A DNA stretch of 64,000 bases, taken from assembly GCF_004010195.1 (NCBI RefSeq), contig NC_057752.1, positions 8,625,616 through 8,689,615 of the forward strand. The letters are read 5' to 3'. Below are positions 1 through 57,379 of this stretch, piece by piece. Each line of letters starts with the position of its first letter. Position 1 is the stretch's first letter. The notes under the pieces are model-generated. The model was given only the letters and a program-made list of their open reading frames with translations. It made no database searches and was not told where the DNA came from. This stretch comes from Chiloscyllium plagiosum (taxonomy: Eukaryota). The position numbers and the translations under genes were made by a program.

Positions 1-2576
1 AAATTTGACCTTTCCGGGCCTAACTCCGGAACAGGTATCGGTCCTAAATGCTCCTCTAACAGTCCAAGAAATACTTGATGCAATTAGGCAACTTCAGAGT
101 GGTAAGGCACCGGGCCCAGATTGTTTTCAAGCTGAATTCTATAAAGAATTTACAGAAATACTGGTTGGTCCACTTATGGACATGTATAACTATGCATATA
201 GTCAGGGCTGTCTCCCGCCTTCGCTGAAAGAGGCAAATATCTCTCTTATCCTTAAAAAAGGAAAGGACCCAGAAGATTGTACATCATACAGACCAATATC
301 CTTGCTAAATGTAGATTTTAAAATCCTTTTTAAAACGTTAGCACTGAGACTAGAAAGGATACTGCCACGTATTATAAAGGAGGATCAGACGGGGTTTATT
401 AAGGGCCGTAGATCATCCAATAATGTTGGAAGGGCTCTGAATATGATTCAAGCTTGTCATCAGGGAAAGATACCAGGAGTAGTGGTTTCATTAGACGCGG
501 AAAAGGCATTTGATAGGGTTGAATGGTCATATTTGTTTTACACATTGGAAAGGTTTGGCGTTGGAAAGGTGTTTACCAAATACGTTGTATAGTGATCCCA
601 AAGCAGTTGTGGTTACCATTGGATTAGGTTCGGATAGCTTCAGTGTGGATAGGGGCTGCCGTCAGGGATGTCCCCTCTCGCCATTGTTATTTACGCTAAT
701 AATTGAACCACTAGCAGAAGCTATACGGGCTGATCCTAATATAATAGTCCCGAGGATTGGTACAGGTAAACATAAAATTACCCTTTATGCAGATGATGTT
801 CTTCTATTCCTCAGTAATCCTCTGATGTCCGTACCTCGCTTAATCCAAGTTATTAATACATTTAGTGCATTCTCAGGCTATAAAATTAATTTCTCAAAAT
901 CGGAGGCTATGCCAATGGGTGGCCTTGCTATGATACCCCGCTTAGTGGATGGATTCCATTTTCCGTTTCGTTGGTCCCTGGAGGGTTTCTTATATTTAGG
1001 CATTTTTATCACCCCAGTATTTGGTCAGTTATACAAGGCTTACATTTGTGCATTTACTGGAAAGGATAAGGCAGGACCTCCAGCGATGGGGAGACCTTCC
1101 AATTTCCTGGCTGAGTAGAATAGCACTAATTAAAATGAATGTCCTGCCCCATCTCCTATACCCTATGAGAATGCTTCCGGTGATGCTGCCGAGGCTGGCA
1201 CTACGTAAATTATATGGCTGGTTGGGTTCCTTTATCTGGAATCATAGACGACCCCTCAATAAGCTGAAGAAGCTACAGCTTCCACAGGCAAGGGGAATTC
1301 TGGACTTCCCAGACTTTAGGAAATATCAGTTAAGTTCCCTATTAAGTTACATAGCTGATTGGATCTTGTCTAACCTGCAATTAATCTGGCTGGACATCGA
1401 GGCTTCTCAAGTAAAATGCCCACTTATTAACCTCTTATTTTCAGACAAGAGGAAAATCATTACAGATTACTGTAAAAACCCTATAATACTAAACACAATT
1501 AAAGCTTGGAATATAATGCGGCAAAATGAGGGCAACTTACATAAAACATCCCCCTATGCTCCGATAGTGGGAGCATGGGGATTTCAACCGGGGGTTACAG
1601 ATGCCACTTTAAAACTCTGGAGATCCAGGGGTACCTCATGTTTAGAGGACCTATTTAAAGAGGGGGTCCTGATATCTTTTGAACAGCTGCATCAGAAATT
1701 CGGATTACCTAATAGAGACCTCTTTCGATACTTCCAAATTCGAGATTACATACAGAAGAAGACTACGTTATTAGATAGTCTTTATAAATCAGATAGAGAA
1801 TGTAGAGTGCTATGGCCAATGGGGGTATCTTCCGTCAGTACTATTTATCATTTACTACATTATGAAGTATCGGGAGATATGGATAATCTGCTTAAAACAT
1901 GGGATCAGGATTTGGGACTAGAAATCTCTATAGAAACATGGAATCATATTTGGGAAGAATTACTATCTGTAACAGAACCCAGGCTATCCAGCTGAAGATA
2001 CTTCATAGGGCCCATATAGCACCGGATTGATTGGCAAAATGTAAGGCAGGAGCATCTCCAATGTGTCCCAAATGTAAAATAGAGGTGGGCACTATTAATT
2101 ATGGAATGTATTCCCCTTGACTTCCTTACAAATATGGTGCACCGAAAGACCGAATTATTTTATAAAATATGGCAGCCCTTCTTGAATTATATGAATACAG
2201 ATATTTCGGCTATCCTAACAAGGGCTTTTATTTAATTGAGATTGCGAACCTGGCTGGTCCGGGGCCCCTTGGGAGAGGAATCCCGCACGAATACGGGTTT
2301 TGTTACATTTGATGTTAACACATTCCGAGCATGTATCTCACTACTCAATTTCTATGTTATCTGTTGGTTTTTTTTCTTTCTCTTATTTGAATAATGTAAG
2401 AGACTTAATTATACACTTAATTATACACTTAAGGGGAAGCATTGGATGTAATATATTAAATTTTGGTTATTATTTAAGATATAATTGTATATCAATGTTT
2501 GTACTTGAGAGTTTTGTTTTTATTTTTGTAAACTTGTAAAAATGTTAAATTTCCAATAAAAATATGTATAAAAAAA
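1..2576 (+). mobile_element. L1-clade LINE, 3' part of ORF2 (RT and C-terminus), frameshifted, with 3' UTR and A-tail
   Basis: ORFs 5-592, 510-1118 and 1021-1995 carry KAPGPD, YRPISLLNVD, SLDAEKAFDRVEW, GCRQGCPLSPLLF and LYADD. CPKC knuckle near 2062, AATAAA at 2555-2560, A-run to 2576. Confidence 0.93.
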
Positions 2577-9110: not shown

Positions 9111-9342
9111 TGCAGTGATTTTAACAAGGGCAGCCAGGTGGACCTCGTAGAATGAGTTCCCTGATTGGACCAGATTAACAGCCCCAATCGGGGAGCCCTG
9201 GCTGACAGATATAACAGAGTGATAGAGGTTCTGTTCACTCTAAGATCTGGCTCTGAGGGATTTGGATCAGTGTCAAGGACTCTCCATGTGTACATAAAGG
9301 GTGACTTGGTCACGGGCTATTGGCCTCTGTGGAGTTATTTCA
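9111..9342 (+). mobile_element. Solo LTR of the Gypsy family seen at 54674 and 55166
   Basis: TG...CA ends. Shares CAGCCAGGTGGACCTC, CTGATTGG..CCAATC and GGCTGACAGATA with 55166-55278, and ATAAAGGGTGACT..TGGCCTCTGT..TTATTTC with 57330-57379. Confidence 0.85.
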
Positions 9343-26052: not shown

Positions 26053-26779
26053 TGTGGGAGGGTCAGTGCTGAGGGAGTGGGTGCTGTGGGAGGGTCAGCG
26101 CTGAGGGAGCGGGCGCTATGGGACCCCAACACTGACAGAGGAGCCGGCACAAGGTAACCTGTTTTGGGGTCTTTGCCCAAGATGGCTCCCATTCTGTTTG
26201 CCTGGCAGCTCTGTGCAATCTTTGAAATCAGGAGTGAGGTAGCTTCAGAGCCTCAGAGGAGGAGGACAGACCAGAGAATTGGGAACATTTTCATTTTGCC
26301 CAGTTGGCGCAATTTGGCCTTCATTCTAATAGGCACGGAGTATAAAAGTCGAGAGGTTTTGCTCGAACTACACAAGACCTGAGTCAGAGCGTAGCTGGAA
26401 CACTGTGAAGTTTCGGGGCCCTGTATCCAAGCAGAGATAGACCGGTTTCGGAGACAGTGCAGGGAAGGGTCCCTCGGCTGATCCTGGGAATGGAGGGACC
26501 CTCTCACGAAGAGAGGGTGAGTAAGTTGGGGTCCGTACCCCTTGAAGTTTAGAGGAACGAGAGGCCACCTTATTAAAACTGACGAGGGGGACACGACAGA
26601 GGGGAGATGAGGTGAGGTTGTTCCCCCCACCTCATATGGGAGTCTCTGGAGGGGCATCATCCCAGAGTTACAGGGTCACACACTGAAGACAGAGATGGGG
26701 AGGGATTCCTTCACTCTCCGAGGGGAGGGAATCGGTGCGATTCTTTACCTCAGATCGCAGCCAGGCTGGGTCACTCGAG

Positions 26780-27395
26780 GCTGAGGGGCTTAATCAGGAA
26801 GGGGGAATCGAGGGGTTATATTCCAGGCCGAGGGGTTTAATCAGGAAGGGGAATCGAGGGGTTATATTCCAGGCCGAGGGGTTTAATCAGGAAGGGGAAT
26901 CGAGGGGTTATATTCCAGGCCGAGGGGTTTAATCAGGAAGGGGGAATCGAGGGGTTATATTCCAGGCCGAAGGGTTTAATCGGGAAGGGAAATCGAGGGG
27001 TTATATTCCAGGCTGAGGAGTTTAATCAGGAAGGGGAATCGAGCGGTTATATTCCAGGCTGAGGGGTTTAATCGGGAAGGGGGAATCGAGGGGTTATATT
27101 CCAGGCTGAGGGGTTTAATCAGGAAGGGGAATCGAGCGGTTATATTCCAGGCCGAGGGGTTTAATCAGGAAGGGGAATCGAGGGGTTATATTCCAGGCCG
27201 ATGGGTTTAATCGGGAAGGGGAATCGAAGGTTTCATTCCAGGCCGAGGGGTTTAATCAGGAAGGGGGAATCGAGGGGTTATATTCCGGCTGAGGGGTTTA
27301 ATCTGGAAGGGGAATCGAGGGGTTATATTCCAGGCCGAGGGGTTTAATCAGGAAAGGGAATCAAGGGGTTATATTCCAGGCTGAGGGGTTTAATC
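26780..27395 (+). repeat. G-rich minisatellite, unit about 46-47 bp, about 13 visible copies, running into a gap
   Basis: Unit GAGGGGTTTAATCAGGAAGGGG(G)AATCGAGGGGTTATATTCCAGGC(C/T) repeated head-to-tail. Confidence 0.97.
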
Positions 27396-27540
27396 NNNNN
27401 NNNNNNNNNNNNNNNNNNNNNNNNNNNNNNNNNNNNNNNNNNNNNNNNNNNNNNNNNNNNNNNNNNNNNNNNNNNNNNNNNNNNNNNNNNNNNNNNNNNN
27501 NNNNNNNNNNNNNNNNNNNNNNNNNNNNNNNNNNNNNNNN
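27396..27540. other. Assembly gap (145 N)
   Basis: Run of N. Confidence 1.
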
Positions 27541-29668: not shown

Positions 29669-29831
29669 GGAGAAAGTGAGGACAGCAGATGCTGGAGATC
29701 AGAGCTGAAAAATGTGTTGCTGGAAAAGCGCAGCAGGTCAGGCAGCATCCAGGGAACAGGATGCCCGAGCAGGCTTATGCCCGAATGGATGCTGCCTGAC
29801 CTGCTGCGCTTTTCCAGCAACACATTTTTCA
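29669..29831 (-). mobile_element. Penelope-derived hairpin mini-insertion with 16-bp TSD
   Basis: TSD GCTTAAAAAGTAAATA at 29653-29668 and 29832-29847. 48-bp inverted arms at 29704-29751 and 29786-29833. Homologous to 44938-45148. Confidence 0.88.
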
Positions 29832-44937: not shown

Positions 44938-45148
44938 GGAGAAAGTGAGGTCTGCAGATGCTGGAGATCAGAGCTGGAAATGTGTTGCTGGAAAAGCGCA
45001 GCAGGTCAGGCAGCATCCAGGGAACAGGAGAATCGACGTTTCGGGCATAAGCCCTTCCTGAAGAAGGGCTTATGCCCGAAACGTCGATTCTCCTGTTCCC
45101 TGGATGCTGCCTGACCTGCTGCGCTTTTCCAGCAACACATTTCCAGCT
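44938..45148 (-). mobile_element. Penelope-derived perfect-hairpin mini-insertion with 15-bp TSD
   Basis: TSD CATCACTTTGGTATA at 44923-44937 and 45149-45163. Perfect 87-bp arms at 44971-45057 and 45063-45149, 5-nt loop, 33-bp tail at 44938-44970. Confidence 0.92.
45054..45089 (+). ncRNA. Minimal type I hammerhead ribozyme core
   Basis: CTGAAGA (45058-45064)-A-GGGC-TTAT-GCCC-GAAA (45078-45081)-CG-TC; predicted cleavage after 45085; stem I is weak. Confidence 0.62.
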
Positions 45149-47085
45149 CATCACTTTGGTATAACCGATTTAGCATAACAAACGTCGAGTCATGCCATTT
45201 GGGTTAAAGACCACCATCACCACCCTGCTACCCCCACATTCCAAAGACTTGTGAATCAAGTTGTAACTGAAGAACCTAACTGTAGTTTATTTAGACATTA
45301 TTGTAATATAGAATAACATATAAGTTGAGCATGTGAGGCTATTAGAAGACGCAATTCAGCAATTGTTGTTAGCAGGCATAGTAATAAATGTCACCAATGG
45401 CGAATTCATAAAAGCAAGGGTAACCTACCTCAAATACTGGAATGGAATTTGCTCCCAAATAGCATTGTGGGTGTACCTACAACATATGGACTGCAGCAGT
45501 TCAAGACGGCAGCTCACCACCATCAGCTCAAGGGCAACTAGGGACGGCAGTAAATGCTGGCCTAGCCAGTGGCTCTTAGGAGTGAATAAAAAAATACATA
45601 GGACAAGGACAAGTTTTGCCAAGAACAGTGCAAGGGGATGTTCTAAAAGAATTCCCTGTTCTGAAAACAAAAATGTAAAATAGTGACATTTAAGAAAATG
45701 TGGGTTTTATTGGAAAGTTGTGTGTAAATTCAGTATGATATCTGTACCTTAACAAATTTATCATAGAAACAAGCAAAACTAACATTGTCAGCAGAATGCC
45801 AAACAGCCTTCGAAAAGCTGAAATCAGTCCGAATAAATGAACCACCCCTAATTTTTCCAAACTCTTTGAATGGCAATTGATGGCAGTGACTTGGAGAGCA
45901 GTCTTACTGCAAAATGATGAGTCAGGAGTAGAGAAGCCAGTAGAGTAATTTTCCAAGAAACTCTACGGACATCAGAGGAAGCACTCTACAGTAGAACAGG
46001 AAACCTTTTGATGATTATTGACTCCTCAACACTTTGAAGTCTCTTTCCAGTATGATAGCAAAACAACATTAATCTATACTGATCATAATCATTAGCATGC
46101 ATTGAAAAGTTTAAAACTCAAAATGTGACACTGTTCCAATGGAGTCTATTCATGAACCATTCAATGTAAACATTATTCACATTGCTGGACAAGATGATTT
46201 GATGGTGAATGTCTTGTCCCAAGATGATGATGAAATACGTATTTAAGAGATGATAATTCCAAGTCTTTTGTATAAATGGGGAATGAGGTGGAATGAATGT
46301 ACATCTAGTACTTTATATGCCACACTTCTTGTGGTGAAGTGACATTTCATCTCAAAGACCACATCTTTTTATCTCCTTTATCTCTGGATTGTGGGGTGAA
46401 AAGGGATGATACTGCTTCATACCAAGGAAATTGTGCAAAGAATTGGCTGAGAGTTTTTTAAAAAATTACTTGAGCACTTTTATGAGTGGTCTTTTCTGGA
46501 ACAGTGAGAAGAGCGTGGACAGTATGGAGCTAAAGAATTCTGAACTAGGGGACAACTGCTTGACAACAATATTTTATTGGCTCCTGACCAGGTAACCAAG
46601 GCTTGTGTGGACCTTTGCAGCAAAAAAAATCTAGCTTCAAAGAGAAAGCATAAAAATATCTGTCTCAGTCTCTACTTTTGTGGAGGTCCCAGAAAGTCTC
46701 CAGTAACAATTACCGGGTTTGTTTTCCCCTTTCTCTGCCTCCCCTGTTGAAAGAAAATTAAAACACCCTCAGAGACATTGAAAGTATGAATTCTAAACCA
46801 GTGAAGGAAAGACTGAACATTAGTGTGCGACAAAGAATTGAAAAGGAAAGAAAAAAAAAACTTATCAAATCCTGTGGTCCAGACTGGTGCTATTGAACGG
46901 TTTCCCTGTCTTACTTGTCTGTGGCGGCTTATGAAGTATGAACTTGAAGTATGGGTACAGTTGCAGTTAGTGATAAGTTATCAATTCATATATCCTATTT
47001 ATCATCAGTTAAAGACCATTTGTTTGCAGTATACAAATCGAGAGACAGTCTTCTTTTCAATTGTGTTTATTAGTCAGACAAATTG

Positions 47086-50407: not shown

Positions 50408-52925
50408 GTAGGCAATTTCATAGCCTTACTCAGTACATATCCTGAACAGAGGTATCCTGGATCAGCCTACAGCAGAACGCCAAGACAAATCCAAGCCTCG
50501 GCCAAATGGTTAAAACATTCTTCAAGATCCGGCAAGTGAATGTAGTTGCTGCTGATAAGTGGTAACAAGACAGCAAAGGAGGCCTAAAGGCCTGAACTGA
50601 GTAAGGGAATTCATAGGTCGGTATCCAAGAAAGTGCACACCCTGGAACGCCCACCTACATCTGATTTGGAACAGTTACATTGCTTAACAACATCCACATC
50701 AGAACTGATTAAAATGAATGTTTGGTTAAATGGTCACCCAGTTCCCATGGAGGGGGATACCAACACAGCTGTATCTGTGGTTGCAGAATCGGTCTTTAAC
50801 AAGGTTCGCTTGGGACTCCAACCCTTAAGTTTGCACAAGACCTCAGCCAGACTGAGAACTTACATTGGGAACCTTTACAGATTAAGGGTATGCCTTTGGT
50901 TCCAGTCTTCTATGAGAAGCAGTTGGTGCAGTTACCACTGATGGTAGTAAAAGGCTTGGGCCCAAGCCTATTGGGGTGGAATTGGATGAAAAAGATTCAC
51001 CTGGATTGGCCTAACATTATTTGACCAGAAAATGGCTGCCTCAGTGAAGACCTAGTGAAATACCCAGGGGTATTTCAGGAAGGGTTTGGGACTAACAAAG
51101 GGGCCAAAGCCATTTTACACGTTTGCAGGAAGCAATTCTGAGATTTTGCAAGGTCTTCCCGGGGCCATTTGCCTTGTGTATAAAAGTAGAGGTGGAAATC
51201 AGGAGGCTGGAGAGCGAAGGAATTATTAAACCAGTTCAGTTTGCAGAATGGGCAGCACCGGCCGTACTGATTGTGAAGCCTGGCCACTGAGGTCGCCTTT
51301 GTGGGGATTTTAAGCAAATGGTAAACGACTTCTCACAGCTGGATAAATATCCAATCCCTCGCACAGGGGATTGGTACGCAAAGTTGGCGGGGGGGGGGTC
51401 CTTTAGGAAGCTGGACGTGAGCCACACGTAGCTGTAATTGCAACTGGATGAGGAGCCCCAGAGGTACGCTACAATTAATACCCATTTTATATCAATATAC
51501 AAGACTGCCATTTGGGGTATCATCAGCCTGCACCCTTTTCCAGCGGACCATGGAGAAGAATTTACAAGGGCTACCCCAGGTTGCAGTTTATCTGGACGTG
51601 CTAATAAAAGGCAGATCAAAAAAATAGCACTTGGACATGTTGCTTAAACGTTGGTTCCTGATGCTGTTTGGCTTGCTGTGTTTTTCAAGCCTCCTGCTTG
51701 TCTAAATATTTCACCCAGGCTGCTATGTGCTTTAGAAGAGAAAAATGTGCTCCAGGCACACCAAGTGACTTACTTGGGTTACAGAGTTAACACCACTGGA
51801 AGAGAACATGAGGACAATTAAAGGAGCCTCAGCTCCCACGTCCGCACCGGAGCGCACCGCACCCACGTCTTTCCTTGGGTTCGCGAATTATTGCGGAAAA
51901 TTCATATGTAACCTGGCCTCCATCTTGGCAACCTTACCCCTGCTATTGAAAGAGGGTCAGCCTTGGAAATGGTCACGGAGCCAAGAAGTAGCCTTTTAGA
52001 ATTTGTCATAGTGACAGATTACAAACCCTTGCCAGGGCTACTGAAGGAAGACATGGTGGTGCTGCCCATAACTTGTGGGAGAATTCGGCGGTGGGCCCTT
52101 ATTCTCAGCACGTAAAAGTACAAACTGGAACACCGTCCAGGAAGCCAAGTGGCTAATGCAGATGCCTTGAGCTGCCTCCCACTGGCAGGTATTCCATTGT
52201 TGGTACCCTCCCCAGAAGAGTTCATTTTGGTGATAAACTCAGAGACCATTGGCAATATCTGACTGCGGACACAAAGATCCTGTCCTCGTGTAACTAAAAC
52301 AGCTGGTAGTAATGGGGGAAACAGAAGGGCCATCACAACCCAGGTTGAAACCTTTCTGGACCTGGTAAGACTAGATCACCGTAGAGGACAGTGGAGAGCA
52401 AGGGTGATTGTCCTGAGTAAAAGGTCACCACCAGAAACTAGCAGAACTCCACCAACGTCATCCAGGGGTTTCCAAGATGAAGATGCTAGCAAGAAGCTAT
52501 GTCTGGTGGCCAAGATTGGATGCCAACTTAGCTGCATTGGTGGGGTAGTGCCAGCATGCTAACAGACAAAAATTGCTACTAGCAGCTCCCCCACATTTGT
52601 TGGAATGGCTGGGTAAACCCTGAACTCAGATGCACATTGACCATGCCAATCCTTTCATGGGCTCAATGTTCCTGATCATTGTGGACACCCATTCAAAGTG
52701 GTTGGATGTGCTTAAGGTTAATTCAACAAACTCAGGGATGACAATTTAGAAGCTGCAAGCATCGTTAACGATACACAGTCTCCTGGAAGTATTGGTTACA
52801 GACAATGGGGCATCATTTTCCAGCAGAGAATTTGAATATTTCCTAAGGCCAAATAGCATTTGGCACATAAGGACAGCTTCTGGATTAGTGGTGCTGGAAG
52901 AGCACAGCAGTTCAGGCAGCATCGA

Positions 52926-52961
52926 AATCGACGTTTCGGGCAAAAGCCCTTCATCAGGAAT
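52926..52961 (-). ncRNA. Minimal type I hammerhead ribozyme core at a Penelope 3' end
   Basis: Minus strand TTATTC-CTGATGA (52957-52951)-A-GGGC-TTTT-GCCC-GAAA-CG-TC-GATT; predicted cleavage after 52930. Confidence 0.72.
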
Positions 52962-53093
52962 AAAGGCAGTGAGCCTGAAGTCTGGAGATATAAGCTAGAG
53001 GAGGGTGGGGGTGGGGAGAAAGTAGCATAGAGTACAATGGGTGAGTGGGGGAGGGGATGAAGGTGATAGGTCAGGGAGGACAGGGAGGAGTGG

Positions 53094-53584
53094 NNNNNNN
53101 NNNNNNNNNNNNNNNNNNNNNNNNNNNNNNNNNNNNNNNNNNNNNNNNNNNNNNNNNNNNNNNNNNNNNNNNNNNNNNNNNNNNNNNNNNNNNNNNNNNN
53201 NNNNNNNNNNNNNNNNNNNNNNNNNNNNNNNNNNNNNNNNNNNNNNNNNNNNNNNNNNNNNNNNNNNNNNNNNNNNNNNNNNNNNNNNNNNNNNNNNNNN
53301 NNNNNNNNNNNNNNNNNNNNNNNNNNNNNNNNNNNNNNNNNNNNNNNNNNNNNNNNNNNNNNNNNNNNNNNNNNNNNNNNNNNNNNNNNNNNNNNNNNNN
53401 NNNNNNNNNNNNNNNNNNNNNNNNNNNNNNNNNNNNNNNNNNNNNNNNNNNNNNNNNNNNNNNNNNNNNNNNNNNNNNNNNNNNNNNNNNNNNNNNNNNN
53501 NNNNNNNNNNNNNNNNNNNNNNNNNNNNNNNNNNNNNNNNNNNNNNNNNNNNNNNNNNNNNNNNNNNNNNNNNNNNNNNNNNNN
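53094..53584. other. Assembly gap (491 N)
   Basis: Run of N. Confidence 1.
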
Positions 53585-54673
53585 GGTGGGCACCAGGGGC
53601 GTTCTGTCCTTGTTACGGTTGGAGGGGTGGGGTCTGAGGGCCGAGGCGTGGGATGTGGCTGAGATGCGTTGGAGGGCATCTTTAACCACGTGGGAAGGGA
53701 AATTGCGGTCTCTAGAGAAGGAGGCCATCTGGTGTGTTCTGTGGTGGAACTGATCCTCCTGGGAGCATATACGGCAGAGGCTGAGGAATTGGGAATACAG
53801 GATGGCATTTTTGCAAGAGGTAGGATGGGAAGAGGTGTAATCCAGGTAGCTGTGGGAGTCGGTGGGTTTGTAAAAAATGTCAGTGTCAAGTCGGTCGTCA
53901 TTAATGGAGATGGAGAGGTCCAGGTATGGTCCCCATCTATGCCTGTCTCTTTGTTGGCTACGTAGAGCAGTTGATCTTCTGTAATTACACCGGCACCACT
54001 CCCCATCTCTTCCTCCGCTACATTGATGACTGCATTGGTTCCACCTCGTGCTCCCGCAAGGAGGTTGAGCGATTCATCAACTTCACCAACACATTCCACC
54101 CTGACCTTAAATTTACCTGGACCATCTCTGACACCTCCCTCCCCTTCCTGGACCTCTCCATCTCCATTGACACTGACATTTGAAATGGTAGCAGGAATGC
54201 CAATCCCAGCCACGTGCCTCCTCTAAGTGCAAAAGATAATTTAATTCAGGGGACGCAGTTTGGTGCCAGAACCATGGAAATGGTGCTGTATAGGTACAAG
54301 GTGAGGGTGACATGAGGTTAGGTCCAGTCACATCCAAAGTTTGGGTCGGTGATACAGTCCTGAACAAATATGTGGATCACCTGAAAGCTATTACCTCTCA
54401 AACAGGGCAGGAGCAAAACATATCTGGATCCTCAGAACAGCTAGAAGGCTTGTCTGAAGCTGCAGATTCTCCCTCTGTCTCGTGTTAAGGAAACCTCAGA
54501 ATCTGAGTCTGATACCATTACCATCAGAATGGGAAGGAGGAAACTTTTCTGGGACACTTTGGACGCAAGGGACGGTCTACAGTCTGGTACATGCTGCCCA
54601 CGTCAGAGGGAACCTGGAGTGAAAACATTGCAGGTGAACCAGGTCTACGTCCCCCGACTTAGGGGGTGAGGGA

Positions 54674-54772
54674 TGTCGTGATTGGATCCTCGTTGAACAC
54701 AAGGTCTTTGATTGGGGTTGTTTGACCTAGGCCAATCAGGACAGCCCAGGCTGACTAATATAAATAGGGGAG
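54674..54772 (+). promoter_or_regulatory. Gypsy 3' LTR U3 half (inverted CCAAT pair and TATA), interrupted just after the TATA motif
   Basis: TG directly after the PPT; TGATTGG..CCAATCAG; TATAAATAGGGGAG at 54759-54772. Confidence 0.8.
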
Positions 54773-57050
54773 GGCGTCCTTTCGAGAAGGAGCACGTGGT
54801 GTCCACCAACACCCTGGAGTTGTTCAGGGAGAGGTGGGTGCCGCAGGGAGTGGAGTGCATCATTTCTCCCTCCAACTCTATTTTGATTTAATCCCTACCC
54901 TCCCCTTCACTGTCCGTCAAGCATTGAAGATACCTCAGAATCTGAAATGGACATGGTGGACGTCACTGCCTTGATGCCTTTGCTGCGTGAAGAGGAGAAT
55001 TAATTTCTTCCGAGACACTCCGGGTGCAAGAGATGAGCTGCTTTTTGTTACACAACGCTCATATCAGAGGCAGAGTCAGGGGAACCTGACCCGCTGCTAA
55101 AAAGCCACAGGAGGGGTTATAAGAAAAAGAACCAGCCTATGTCCTTGGACTCAGAGGGGGAGGGATGTAGTAATCGCAATGAGATCAGCCAGGTGGACCT
55201 CATACATTATGAATACCCTGATTGGGGCTGTTAATCTGGTCCAATCAGATAGCCATGGCTGACAGATAGAAACAGGAGGGTTGCCTGCCCCTCTTCCGCG
55301 GTTACGTTAGGGCCCGGGTTTCCTTGGAGAAGGAGCACGTGGTGTCGACCAACACCCTGGAGTTGTTCAGGGGGAGGTGGGTGCCGCAGGGAGTGGAGTG
55401 CATCATTTCTCCCTCCAATTCTATTTTGATTTAGTCCCTACCCTCCCCTTCACTGTTTTGATCACACAGCATTGCCCTTTGATGTGAAGGGCAGTGTTTG
55501 TCACTGGCCACTCGGGTGTTTTCCTATCTTCCTGGTGGTGGAAATTGAATAAAAAAAAAAAATAAACAGGAGATTCCGCAGGGAGTGGAGTGCATCATTT
55601 CTCCGTCCAATTCTATTTTGATTTAGTCCCTACCCTCCCCTTCACTGTTTTGATCACACAGCACTGTCCCTTGCTGTGAAGGGCAGTGTTTGTCACTGGC
55701 CACCCGGGTGTTTTCCTATCTTCCTGGTGGTGGAAATTGAATAAAGATTCGTGCACTTTGTGTCTCTCACTGTGTCTCCCACCTGCACACACACACACCA
55801 TGGGTGCTGGGGATAAAATAAGCACTACCGCACTTAGGTGGTAGTGTGGGGGTTTAAAAGAAGAAGAAAAAAAAACAAACAGGAGTTGATTTAGTCCAAA
55901 AAAAGAAATATAAATAGGGGAGGGCGTCCTTTCGAGAAGGAGCACGTGGTGTCCACCAACACCCTGGAGTTGTTCAGGGAGAGGTGGGTGCCGCAGGGAG
56001 TGGAGTGCATCATTTCTCCCTCCAACTCTATTTTGATTTAATCCCTACCCTCCCCTTCACTGTCTTGATGACACAGCACTGCCCTTTGATGTGAAGGGCA
56101 GTGCTTGTCACTGGCCACCCGGGTGTTTTCCTATCTTCCTGGTGGTGGAATTTGAATAAAGATTCGTGCACCTTGTGTCTCTCACTGTGTCTCACACCTA
56201 CACACACACACATGGGTGCTGGGGAAAAATAAGCACTACCGCAGTTAGGTAGTAGTGCGGGGGTGATAAAAAAGGGGGATCACCTTGACATGCCCATTTG
56301 CCACCAGATGGTGGGAATCCCCAGTGAAGGGCTCTCGATGTGGGAGTCCTCCCCCTTTCTCTCGGGGATCTGGGGTGGAGGATGTTGCACAGAGCAGTCT
56401 GCTGCAACCGCAGATTGTGGTGGTTCATGGACTGTTTGTTCTGTGGTCCCGTGGACCATGTATATATTGGATGTGGGCATTTGCACTCCTTTATAGTTTT
56501 CTGGAAAACCTTCTCTGCTTTTGGTTGCACTTCAGTCTCATACTCCCAATTTTTGGGCACCCGGGGTGGAAGAAGGTAGGTCAGAGGATCCTCTCGTGGG
56601 TCTGCTCCTCGGCCTGGCCAAACTGGCCATAAACAGGTCCAGGCAGCGGGCCGTGGAGGGGGTCGTTAGGGCCGACTGCCTGCCCCTCTTCCACGGTTAT
56701 GTTCAAGCCCAAGTGTCCCTAGAGAAGGAGTACGCGATGTCTACCAGCACCCTTGAGCTTTTCAGGGAGAGGTGGGCATCGCGTGAAATGTTTTATTTCC
56801 TCCTCCAACTCTATTTTGATTTAATGTCTTCCCTCCCTTTCACTTTTTTGATCACACAGCATTGCTCTTTGATGTGAAGGGCACTGCTTGTCACTAGCCA
56901 CTCTAGTGTTTCCTTTCTTCCTGATGGTGGATTATAAAGAAAGATTTACGCTCCTGTTGTTCTTCACTGTGTCCTACACCTGCGCACACAACATGGGTGT
57001 TGGGGAAAATATAAGCACTACCCTGTTAGGCGGTAGTGTGGGGGTAAAAA
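54773..57050 (+). mobile_element. Cluster of 5'-truncated Tx1-like (L1-group) LINE 3' ends: about 54773-54914, 55279-55562, 55573-55875, 55923-56270 and 56280-57051
   Basis: Repeated ORF2 C-terminus CLPLFRGYVRARVSLEKEHVVSTNTLELFRERWVPQGVECIISPSNSILI*. The longest copy has LGDLGWRMLH..CNRRL, C.FCG..DHVY..C and LLLGLAKLAINRSR. Shared 3' UTR and A-rich tails. Confidence 0.85.
54915..55278 (+). mobile_element. Second Gypsy 3' internal end, PPT and LTR U3 half
   Basis: ACCTCAGAATCTGA is shared with 54493; PPT AGAGGGGGAGGGA at 55153-55165; TGTAGT at 55166; homologous to the solo LTR at 9111-9342. Confidence 0.82.
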
Positions 57051-57052
57051 AC

Positions 57053-57379
57053 ATAAGCAGGAGATTTAGAACCTCCTCAGTTTTGGGCACTGACCCTGTG
57101 CTGGCTGGGCCACCGTCAGTGTGCTCCTGCTGCTAGTCTCTGTTTTGGAGGAGGAAAGTTTCTTTTTCATCCCCCTGCCCCCACCATTTTTCCAGGGAAG
57201 ATATTTGTTCTTTTTGGTTTTCTTTTTGTTTTTTGAAAAAAAATATGTAAAAGGGAATTTAGAATCCCGTCAGTCCAGGAGACTGACTCTGAGCTGGCTG
57301 GTCACAGCTAGTGTACTGTGCACAAGTAAATAAAGGGTGACTCGATGATGGGATACTGGCCTCTGTACAATTATTTCCA
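57053..57379 (+). mobile_element. Downstream (R-U5) halves of the Gypsy LTR, separated by another A-tailed insert (about 57130-57243)
   Basis: ATAAGCAGGAGATTTAGAACC.. and TATGTAAAAGGGAATTTAGAATCC..; AATAAAGGGTGACT..GATACTGGCCTCTGT..TTATTTCCA matches the end of the 9111-9342 LTR. Confidence 0.75.

What the first reader, a model, noticed from the sequence alone, without database searches (positions are those of the whole stretch)
54757..56064. 992-bp Gypsy/Tx1 chimera ending in an A-tract and flanked by an exact 158-bp direct repeat
Seen: 54757-54914 and 55907-56064 are identical (offset 1150) and both begin at the TATA target. Between them, 54915-55906 holds a second Gypsy 3' internal end, PPT, LTR U3 half, two Tx1 3' ends, a 12-bp Tx1 scrap (TTGATTTAGTCC) and an A-tract. 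Inference: an RNA from another Gypsy locus already carrying Tx1 tails was retrotransposed in trans into the same target with an unusually long TSD, meaning the LINE can mobilise pieces of its host element. Ectopic recombination or misassembly are alternatives.
Basis: partly seen in the sequence, partly recalled or inferred. Interest (0 to 1): 0.7.

Follow-up and report, generated by a model that had tools for sequence, protein, structure and literature searches.

The report
LINE-copied Gypsy fragment, long target duplication
A piece of one jumping gene, already carrying the tails of a second jumping gene that parasitises it, was most likely pasted by that parasite's enzyme into a related copy elsewhere, duplicating an unusually long 158 bases; it is probably real and neat, but a single event made of steps already described in other animals.

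Summary
In detail: 54757-54914 and 55907-56064 are identical and cannot be extended. The repeat is about 15 bp of LTR TATA target plus about 143 bp of a resident Tx1 tail. The 992 bp between come from a different Gypsy subfamily, start inside the pol tail, carry two Tx1 ends and a 12-bp scrap, and end in an A-tract at the Tx1 target. Neither junction has long homology, so unequal crossover is unlikely. Best reading (0.62): Tx1-primed reverse transcription of a read-through RNA from another locus, with a 156-158-bp target duplication. Public contigs confirm the resident LTR/Tx1 junction in two other samples and hold near-identical insert-interior sequence (a likely donor). One runs through the repeat start unbranched, as an empty allele would. 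Neither insert junction was seen, so DNA-level template switching (0.17) and a haplotype-merge artefact at the 5' junction (0.13) stay open. 'In trans' is unproven. Tx1 targeting of LTR elements, LINE copying of LTR-element RNA, host-transposon 5' extensions and duplications over 100 bp all have precedents. An older repeat of similar layout lies 1.1 kb downstream. New member of a known kind; interest 0.27.

The parts
50700..52878 (+). Resident decayed Gypsy pol (RT, then integrase); start approximate; many stops and frameshifts
   Evidence: Pfam RVT_1 E 0.0026, Integrase_H2C2 E 3.8e-7, rve E 1.7e-4; RT-before-integrase order
54170..54673 (+). Resident Gypsy 3' internal end with polypurine tract (54661-54673)
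   Evidence: X16 contig 54424-54813 with 0 differences
54674..54756 (+). Resident LTR U3 (starts TG), up to the inferred first nick
   Evidence: similar to the solo LTR at 9111-9341, 57 of 82 columns, 0 of 500 shuffles reach it
54757..54914 (+). Left copy of the 158-bp repeat: LTR TATA target (54757 to about 54772) plus the 5' part of resident Tx1 tail X
   Evidence: the LTR/Tx1 junction is spanned by an X16 contig
54915..55152 (+). Insert: 5'-truncated pol C-terminal tail of a second Gypsy subfamily
   Evidence: 28 protein relatives at E<=0.001; the junction falls inside their coding tail; X15 piece 54981-55153 with 1 difference, organism B piece 54973-55155 with 4
55153..55165 (+). Insert: polypurine tract
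   Evidence: sequence
55166..55278 (+). Insert: U3 of the second subfamily, ending in its target AAACAGGAG (55270-55278)
   Evidence: 82 of 111 columns identical to the solo LTR; X16 piece 55142-55243 with 0 differences
55279..55562 (+). Insert: Tx1 3' end a, ending at an internal AATAAA that runs into an A tail
   Evidence: tblastn of Xenopus Tx1 P0008 at 55291-55416, E 0.001
55563..55572 (+). Insert: donor-type target copy (short duplication of insertion a)
55573..55876 (+). Insert: Tx1 3' end b with intact terminal stem-loop (about 55822-55847) and A-rich tail
   Evidence: fold -16.5 kcal/mol, z -3.6, 1 of 200 shuffles as good
55877..55885 (+). Insert: donor-type target copy (short duplication of insertion b)
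55886..55897 (+). Insert: 12-bp Tx1 scrap of the a/b variant, probably the start of a third Tx1 at the donor
   Evidence: exact matches only at 55426 and 55618
55898..55906 (+). Insert: terminal A-tract (7 A, G, A; up to two more A shared with the repeat)
55907..56064 (+). Right copy of the 158-bp repeat
56065..56279 (+). Remainder of resident Tx1 X, its tail and a target-like copy (56266-56279; 11 of 14 alike to 54758-54771)
56280..57063 (+). Older Tx1 3' end (76-80% to a, b, X) with tail and target copy 57053-57063
   Evidence: tblastn P0008 56307-56778, E 8e-9
57064..57243 (+). First R-like stretch (to about 57125), 110 bp of unknown T-rich DNA, then an A-tract (57236-57243): candidate second, older event
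   Evidence: 52 of 71 columns alike to 57251-57317, 0 of 500 shuffles
57244..57379 (+). Target-like motif and LTR R/U5, ending CA
   Evidence: match to solo LTR 9290-9341; X16 piece 57196-57305 with 0 differences spans the A-tract junction

Best explanation
A Tx1-clade LINE targets the TATA region of this LTR family and stacks its tails there. At a donor locus, a Gypsy of a second subfamily had two or three such tails in its 3' LTR. A sense transcript ran through the pol tail, U3 and both tails and was cut and polyadenylated 12 bases into the third. Tx1 ORF2 protein nicked the bottom strand at the target of the resident LTR, just in front of Tx1 X, and primed reverse transcription on the A tail. 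It stopped after 992 bases. The top strand was opened 156-158 bases downstream instead of the usual 9-15, so that stretch was duplicated. Shown: anatomy, Tx1 and Gypsy identity, foreign origin, junction positions. Inferred: RNA intermediate, which enzyme acted, site of the second nick. Speculative: pairing of the incoming Tx1 sequence with the neighbouring 95%-alike tail helped open the long overhang.
For: The 3' junction is an A-tract placed at the motif that precedes 6 of 6 Tx1 pieces in the window, one of them the duplicated copy. All insert parts are in sense, and the 5' end falls inside a coding tail. The insert holds an intact Tx1 terminal stem-loop about 50 nt from its end. An AAGAAA hexamer ends 28 nt before the A-tract (weak; its signal role is recalled). 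Stacking order fits age: old copy rightmost (76-80%), X next, insert leftmost with 0 of 158 differences. Donor-like sequence: X15 1 difference in 173, X16 0 in 102, organism B 4 in 183. X16 contig 54424-54813 passes the predicted branch point unbroken, as a pre-insertion allele would. Duplications over 100 bp occur in L1 assays (PMC5223499).
Against: No listed contig piece bridges 54914/54915 or 55897-55909 (24 pieces shown, 82,627 not). X15's contig ends at 54787, one base off the 54786 predicted if the window's second copy were present, so neither sample shows that branch. The A-tract is short and interrupted. There is no AATAAA within 30 nt. The other stacked insertions here have 9-14-bp duplications. 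The donor was not seen contiguously. A proxy test for 5' microhomology was negative (107 of 315 controls as good).
Confidence: 0.62

Rival explanations
1. DNA-level template switching (microhomology-mediated break-induced replication or synthesis-dependent annealing): a polymerase left the locus at 54914, copied 992 bp of the donor, and returned 158 bp upstream by pairing of A-rich target-like sequence. No RNA step.
For: Produces the same duplication-insertion layout. The A-tract is short and could be templated. The donor and recipient share a target-like A-rich motif at the return point. Base 54914 can be read as the first base of the donor codon, so 1-2 nt of microhomology is likely.
Against: The return falls exactly at the Tx1 nick site and the insert is all-sense and 5'-truncated, as reverse transcription predicts. 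DNA-patch insertions typically lack a duplication and an A-tract (PMC5110952). No extended microhomology by proxy.
Confidence: 0.17
2. The insertion is real and Tx1-made but heterozygous, with an ordinary short duplication. The assembler joined the empty haplotype (to 54914) to the filled one (from 54915), creating a false 158-bp repeat.
For: 100% identity. The assembly has N gaps, one 1.2 kb away. An empty-type path exists in X16. The 5' junction was not seen in reads.
Against: The join has no N and no visible overlap that an assembler could use. The 3' junction cannot arise this way. A young true duplication is also identical (0 of 158 allows up to 1.9% divergence).
Confidence: 0.13
3. The whole arrangement is a misassembly of two separate loci through shared Tx1 repeats.
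For: Tx1 tails are present in thousands of copies (raw-read depth up to about 2,300 against about 0-1 in single-copy bins). Neither junction was seen.
Against: Neither junction lies in shared repeat sequence: one joins Tx1 to Gypsy pol, the other joins an A-tract to a locus-specific LTR/Tx1 junction with only two or three A's in common. Two independent false joins would have to mimic a LINE insertion.
Confidence: 0.04
4. Unequal crossover between Tx1 copies, or insertion by the Gypsy integrase.
For: The region is full of 94-96%-alike repeats.
Against: Crossover needs homology at both junctions and there is none. An integrase product would begin TG, end CA and have a 4-6-bp duplication (established knowledge); the insert begins inside pol and ends in A's.
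Confidence: 0.04

Closest known systems
Tx1-8_Crp and Tx1-4_AMi (crocodilian Tx1 families; PMC4494074, passages)
   Same: Tx1-clade LINEs preferentially inserted into specific LTR retrotransposons; tandem insertions sandwiching a target copy are described for the related SINEU-3.
   Different: Exact target position and LTR family could not be compared (supplement not readable); no long duplication is described in the passages read.
SINEU-2B 5' extensions derived from Mariner-N4_AMi (PMC4494074)
   Same: Tx1 machinery moving sequence of the host transposon that lies 5' of the inserted element, explained by transcription from the flank.
   Different: There it forms a multi-copy SINE subfamily; here one copy, the host is a Gypsy in sense orientation, and the passenger includes PPT and U3.
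HERV-W processed pseudogenes (PMC5537654, passages)
   Same: LINE machinery reverse-transcribing LTR-element RNA; poly(A) tail and target duplication.
   Different: They end at U3-R, land at TT/AAAA sites with 5-15-bp duplications and number 135 of 213 loci; this one ends in Tx1 sequence, lands in another LTR's target and has 156-158 bp.
Long target duplications of engineered human L1 (PMC5223499; category in PMC4245944)
   Same: Duplications over 100 bp from a distant second nick; under 10% of events in HeLa cells, most events in repair-deficient cells.
   Different: Cell-culture L1; this is a germline Tx1-type event beside a homologous tail.
Tx1L of Xenopus laevis (P0008, 'Transposon TX1 149 kDa protein')
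   Same: C-terminal ORF2 homology, E 8e-9, 29 of 83 identical; targets another transposon.
   Different: Its target is the DNA transposon Tx1D (PMC4494074).

Membership tests
Tx1 clade (the LINE tails) | ORF2 homology to Tx1L | tested here: met
   C-terminal match to P0008, E 8e-9; P0008 carries endonuclease, RT and zf-RVT
Tx1 clade (the LINE tails) | RT-domain placement in the Tx1 clade | not testable with these tools
   No RT of this family lies in the window and no genome is held
Target-specific Tx1 family (criterion in PMC4494074: target in over 20% of flanks) | Genome-wide target preference | tested here: inconclusive
   6 of 6 pieces in this one stack follow the motif; three joints fit other LTR/Tx1 junctions but have only 21-26-base sides; no genome-wide count
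LINE-mediated (TPRT) insertion of a passenger RNA | Flanking direct repeat starting at the endonuclease site | tested here: met
   156-158 bp, starting at the target; far longer than typical
LINE-mediated (TPRT) insertion of a passenger RNA | Non-templated poly(A) tail | tested here: inconclusive
   A-tract of 9-11 nt present where Tx1 has none; donor not available to show that it is non-templated
LINE-mediated (TPRT) insertion of a passenger RNA | AATAAA signal 10-30 nt upstream of the tail | tested here: not met
   Only AAGAAA, ending 28 nt upstream (sequence)
LINE-mediated (TPRT) insertion of a passenger RNA | 5' truncation, sense orientation | tested here: met
   Starts inside the pol tail; all parts on +
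LINE-mediated (TPRT) insertion of a passenger RNA | Donor locus and empty allele | tested here: inconclusive
   Donor-like pieces in 3 of 3 contig runs; empty-like path in X16; nothing contiguous
HERV-W-type processed pseudogene | 3' end at U3-R followed by poly(A) | tested here: not met
   R is absent; the 3' end is Tx1 sequence
Gypsy integrase insertion | TG...CA ends and 4-6-bp duplication | tested here: not met
   Sequence
Unequal crossover product | Long homology at both junctions | tested here: not met

The most novel reading that the evidence does not exclude
This is one visible case of a recurrent loop. By landing at the LTR TATA box, Tx1 adds its own 3' stem-loop and poly(A) signals to Gypsy transcripts, turning tagged Gypsy loci into Tx1-dependent passengers that are delivered into other LTRs of the family. 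Landing beside a homologous tail favours long duplications because incoming RNA or cDNA opens the neighbouring duplex. The older repeat at 57046-57317 would be a second such event at the same LTR.
Probability: 0.12. Interest if true: 0.6.

Novelty: new member of a known kind. Interest (0 to 1): 0.27.

Why it matters
As a single event it is a clear germline example of a rare class (a target duplication over 100 bp) and a usable insertion marker, but it teaches no new principle. If a genome-wide count showed many such chimeras, or long duplications enriched in front of homologous tails, it would give a natural test of an open question, what sets the second-strand nick in LINE insertion, and show a target-specific LINE shuffling pieces of its host family between LTRs.

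Tried and rejected
Donor search in the own genome: no genome is held. Metagenome contigs: 344 pattern matches but no relative of the Tx1 C-terminus; 0 matches to a 23-base Tx1 motif. Indexed protein search with the insert's Gypsy tail: 0 of 22 candidates; the full HMMER search found 28, of which I used the 21 whose match starts at query residue 1-3. 5' microhomology by proxy with the resident Gypsy: not above controls, 107 of 315. Covariation in the Tx1 stem-loop: 0 of 10 pairs with changes on both sides in 3 copies, so the hairpin rests on energy alone (z -3.6, -3.2, -1.6). Copy number from contig depth (insert interior 17.5 against 8-12 in X15; 10 against 6-8 in X16): not used as evidence, since a flank piece in X16 also shows 15. 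Raw reads X19 cover single-copy DNA at about 0-1x, too thin for junctions. 57126-57250 as an L1 3' end: 16 of 500 shuffles as good, not accepted. The scrap as an LTR R start: only a gapped match, against an exact 12 of 12 to Tx1. Local duplication of the resident Gypsy: rejected (58-70% of columns identical). Tx1 a and b inserting after arrival: unlikely, since they differ by 3.5-6% from each other and X while the repeat has no difference. A bacterial promoter scan was irrelevant. Look-ups of earlier findings by sequence, words and nearby place gave nothing.

Full report
Observation. The two stretches 54757-54914 and 55907-56064 are identical over 158 of 158 bases and extend no further. The repeat starts AATATAAAT; the first two A's could be tail, so 156-158 bp. 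It consists of about 15 bp of LTR target and about 143 bp of a 5'-truncated Tx1 tail (X), which continues normally only after the right copy.

Identity of the parts. The resident element is a decayed Gypsy: RT precedes integrase (Pfam; 3 of 10 pieces scanned from it gave hits, two below the curated cut-off). The LINE tails match the C-terminus of Xenopus Tx1 ORF2 (P0008; tblastn E 8e-9 at 56307-56778; 29 of 83 identical). P0008 was reached through a predicted protein (P0004) that shares the tail and has endonuclease and RT parts. No RT of this family is in the window, so clade placement rests on the C-terminus. A sawshark hit (P0005) and earlier notes suggest a cartilaginous fish; nothing depends on that.

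The insert is foreign. Its Gypsy tail aligns to the resident one at 141 of 245 columns and its U3 at 62 of 89; blastn finds no other copy of the tail in the window. It starts inside the pol C-terminal tail: 21 relatives whose match begins at residues 1-3 (of 28 found) carry unrelated residues upstream, where the window has Tx1 3' UTR. So the 5' junction is sharp, with perhaps 1-2 shared bases; a proxy test for more was negative (107 of 315 controls). The 3' junction is scrap, A-tract, recipient target. Neither junction has the homology that unequal crossover needs.

Targeting and order. All 6 Tx1 pieces in the window follow the LTR TATA motif or a copy of it, and the ordinary ones are bounded by 9-14-bp copies. 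A solo LTR at 9111-9341 has the site empty. Age falls from right to left: old copy 76-80%, X 94-95% to a and b, insert with no difference in its repeat (upper bound 1.9%). Six earlier notes of this scan report the same targeting at other loci; they are unchecked leads, not support.

Public reads (4 of 22 runs listed; one call allowed; 24 pieces shown, 82,627 not). Organism A matches the window closely (X16: 0 differences in five listed long pieces). X16 contig 54424-54813 spans the resident U3/target/X junction, so that junction is real. Logan contigs overlap by 30 bases; a k=31 graph of the window branches at the 31-mer 54757-54787, so a carrier's contig should stop at 54786. X16's runs on to 54813, where family-shared words begin: this fits an empty allele, or a lost side branch at depth 7. 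X15's stops at 54787, one base off; I cannot explain this (a variant at 54788 or a different tail would both do it). Insert-interior sequence is present in X15 (1 difference in 173), X16 (0 in 102) and organism B (4 in 183), so a donor older than the event is likely. No listed piece bridges either insert junction; such pieces would be about 60-90 bases and fall below the listing, so this is no evidence either way. The structure is therefore plausible but unconfirmed.

Mechanism. Best supported (0.62): a sense transcript of a donor Gypsy, with Tx1 tails stacked in its 3' LTR, was polyadenylated 12 bases into a third tail; Tx1 ORF2 protein primed on it at the resident target; reverse transcription ended after 992 bases; the second strand was opened 156-158 bases away. 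Tx1 b keeps the terminal hairpin (no covariation), a possible recognition signal (inference from other LINEs, recalled). The RNA as inserted cannot encode ORF2, but a full-length Tx1 upstream in the donor cannot be excluded, so trans is likely, not shown. A speculative cause of the long duplication is pairing of incoming Tx1 sequence with the 95%-alike tail beside the nick; against it, the other stacked insertions here have short duplications. Rivals: DNA template switching (0.17), true insertion with a false 5' join of haplotypes (0.13), full misassembly (0.04), crossover or integrase (0.04).

A second candidate. 57055-57125 and 57251-57317 are alike at 52 of 71 columns (0 of 500 shuffles); 110 T-rich bases and an A-tract lie between, and the second copy starts at a target-like motif. 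An X16 contig confirms that junction. It may be an older long duplication or a 3' transduction of another LTR's R region by the old Tx1; not resolved.

Comparison with what is known. PMC4494074 (passages; section 20; supplement not readable, and it may hold the target details): crocodilian Tx1-8_Crp and Tx1-4_AMi prefer LTR retrotransposons, tandem insertions share a target copy, and SINEU-2B carries 5' extensions from its host transposon. PMC5537654 (passages): L1 made 135 of 213 HERV-W loci. PMC5223499 (passages): duplications over 100 bp are under 10% of L1 events in HeLa cells and most in repair-deficient cells. PMC4245944 (passages): L1-clade duplications peak at 13-15 bp. PMC5110952 (passages): hallmarks of LINE-made against repair-made insertions. 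Listings of searches showed no paper on this shark family or on a Tx1 moving PPT-U3 pieces between LTRs; the library lacks most subscription journals and Repbase, so this is not a claim of absence.

Verdict. Real-looking, young, single-locus LINE passenger insertion with a rare long duplication. It works like an L1 transduction or processed pseudogene; it is not an HERV-W-type copy by structure. New member of a known kind; interest 0.27. The bolder reading, a recurrent LTR-to-LTR shuttle with homology-aided long duplications, has probability 0.12 and would deserve about 0.6.

Noticed in passing
window 57046-57317: Older direct repeat (52 of 71 columns alike) of target plus LTR R start, with 110 T-rich bases and an A-tract between: same layout as the finding; old long duplication or 3' transduction. 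Junction present in X16.
   Followed up: partly
window 55822-55847, 56233-56258, 57014-57038: Conserved hairpin just before the Tx1 tail (z -3.6, -3.2, -1.6; no covariation in 3 copies).
   Followed up: partly
window 55540-55562: Tx1 a ends about 110 bases early: an internal AATAAA runs straight into the A tail, suggesting internal priming.
   Followed up: no
window 9111-9341: Solo LTR of the same family with an empty target; closer to the insert's U3 (82 of 111) than to the resident U3 (57 of 82).
   Followed up: partly
window 52879-54168: Very high-copy element interrupting the resident integrase, with a 491-base N gap and a 22-bp exact inverted repeat (53903-53924 / 54147-54168); looks Penelope-like (recalled; Pfam gave no hit).
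   Followed up: no
window 44971-45149: Perfect inverted repeat, 87-nt arms, 5 nt apart; 52 nt of it are identical at 29710-29761.
   Followed up: no
window 1-2560: 3' part of an L1-like LINE (RVT_1 E 6.5e-15) with a T-rich 3' UTR and A-rich end.
   Followed up: no
window 26729-27404: Tandem array of about 46-bp units next to an N gap.
   Followed up: no
joints 55276>56174, 55277>56182, 55571>56513: Joints at depth 67-167 in both organism-A contig runs may be multi-copy LTR/Tx1 junctions elsewhere, which would mean tagged LTRs were amplified; sides are only 21-26 bases.
   Followed up: no
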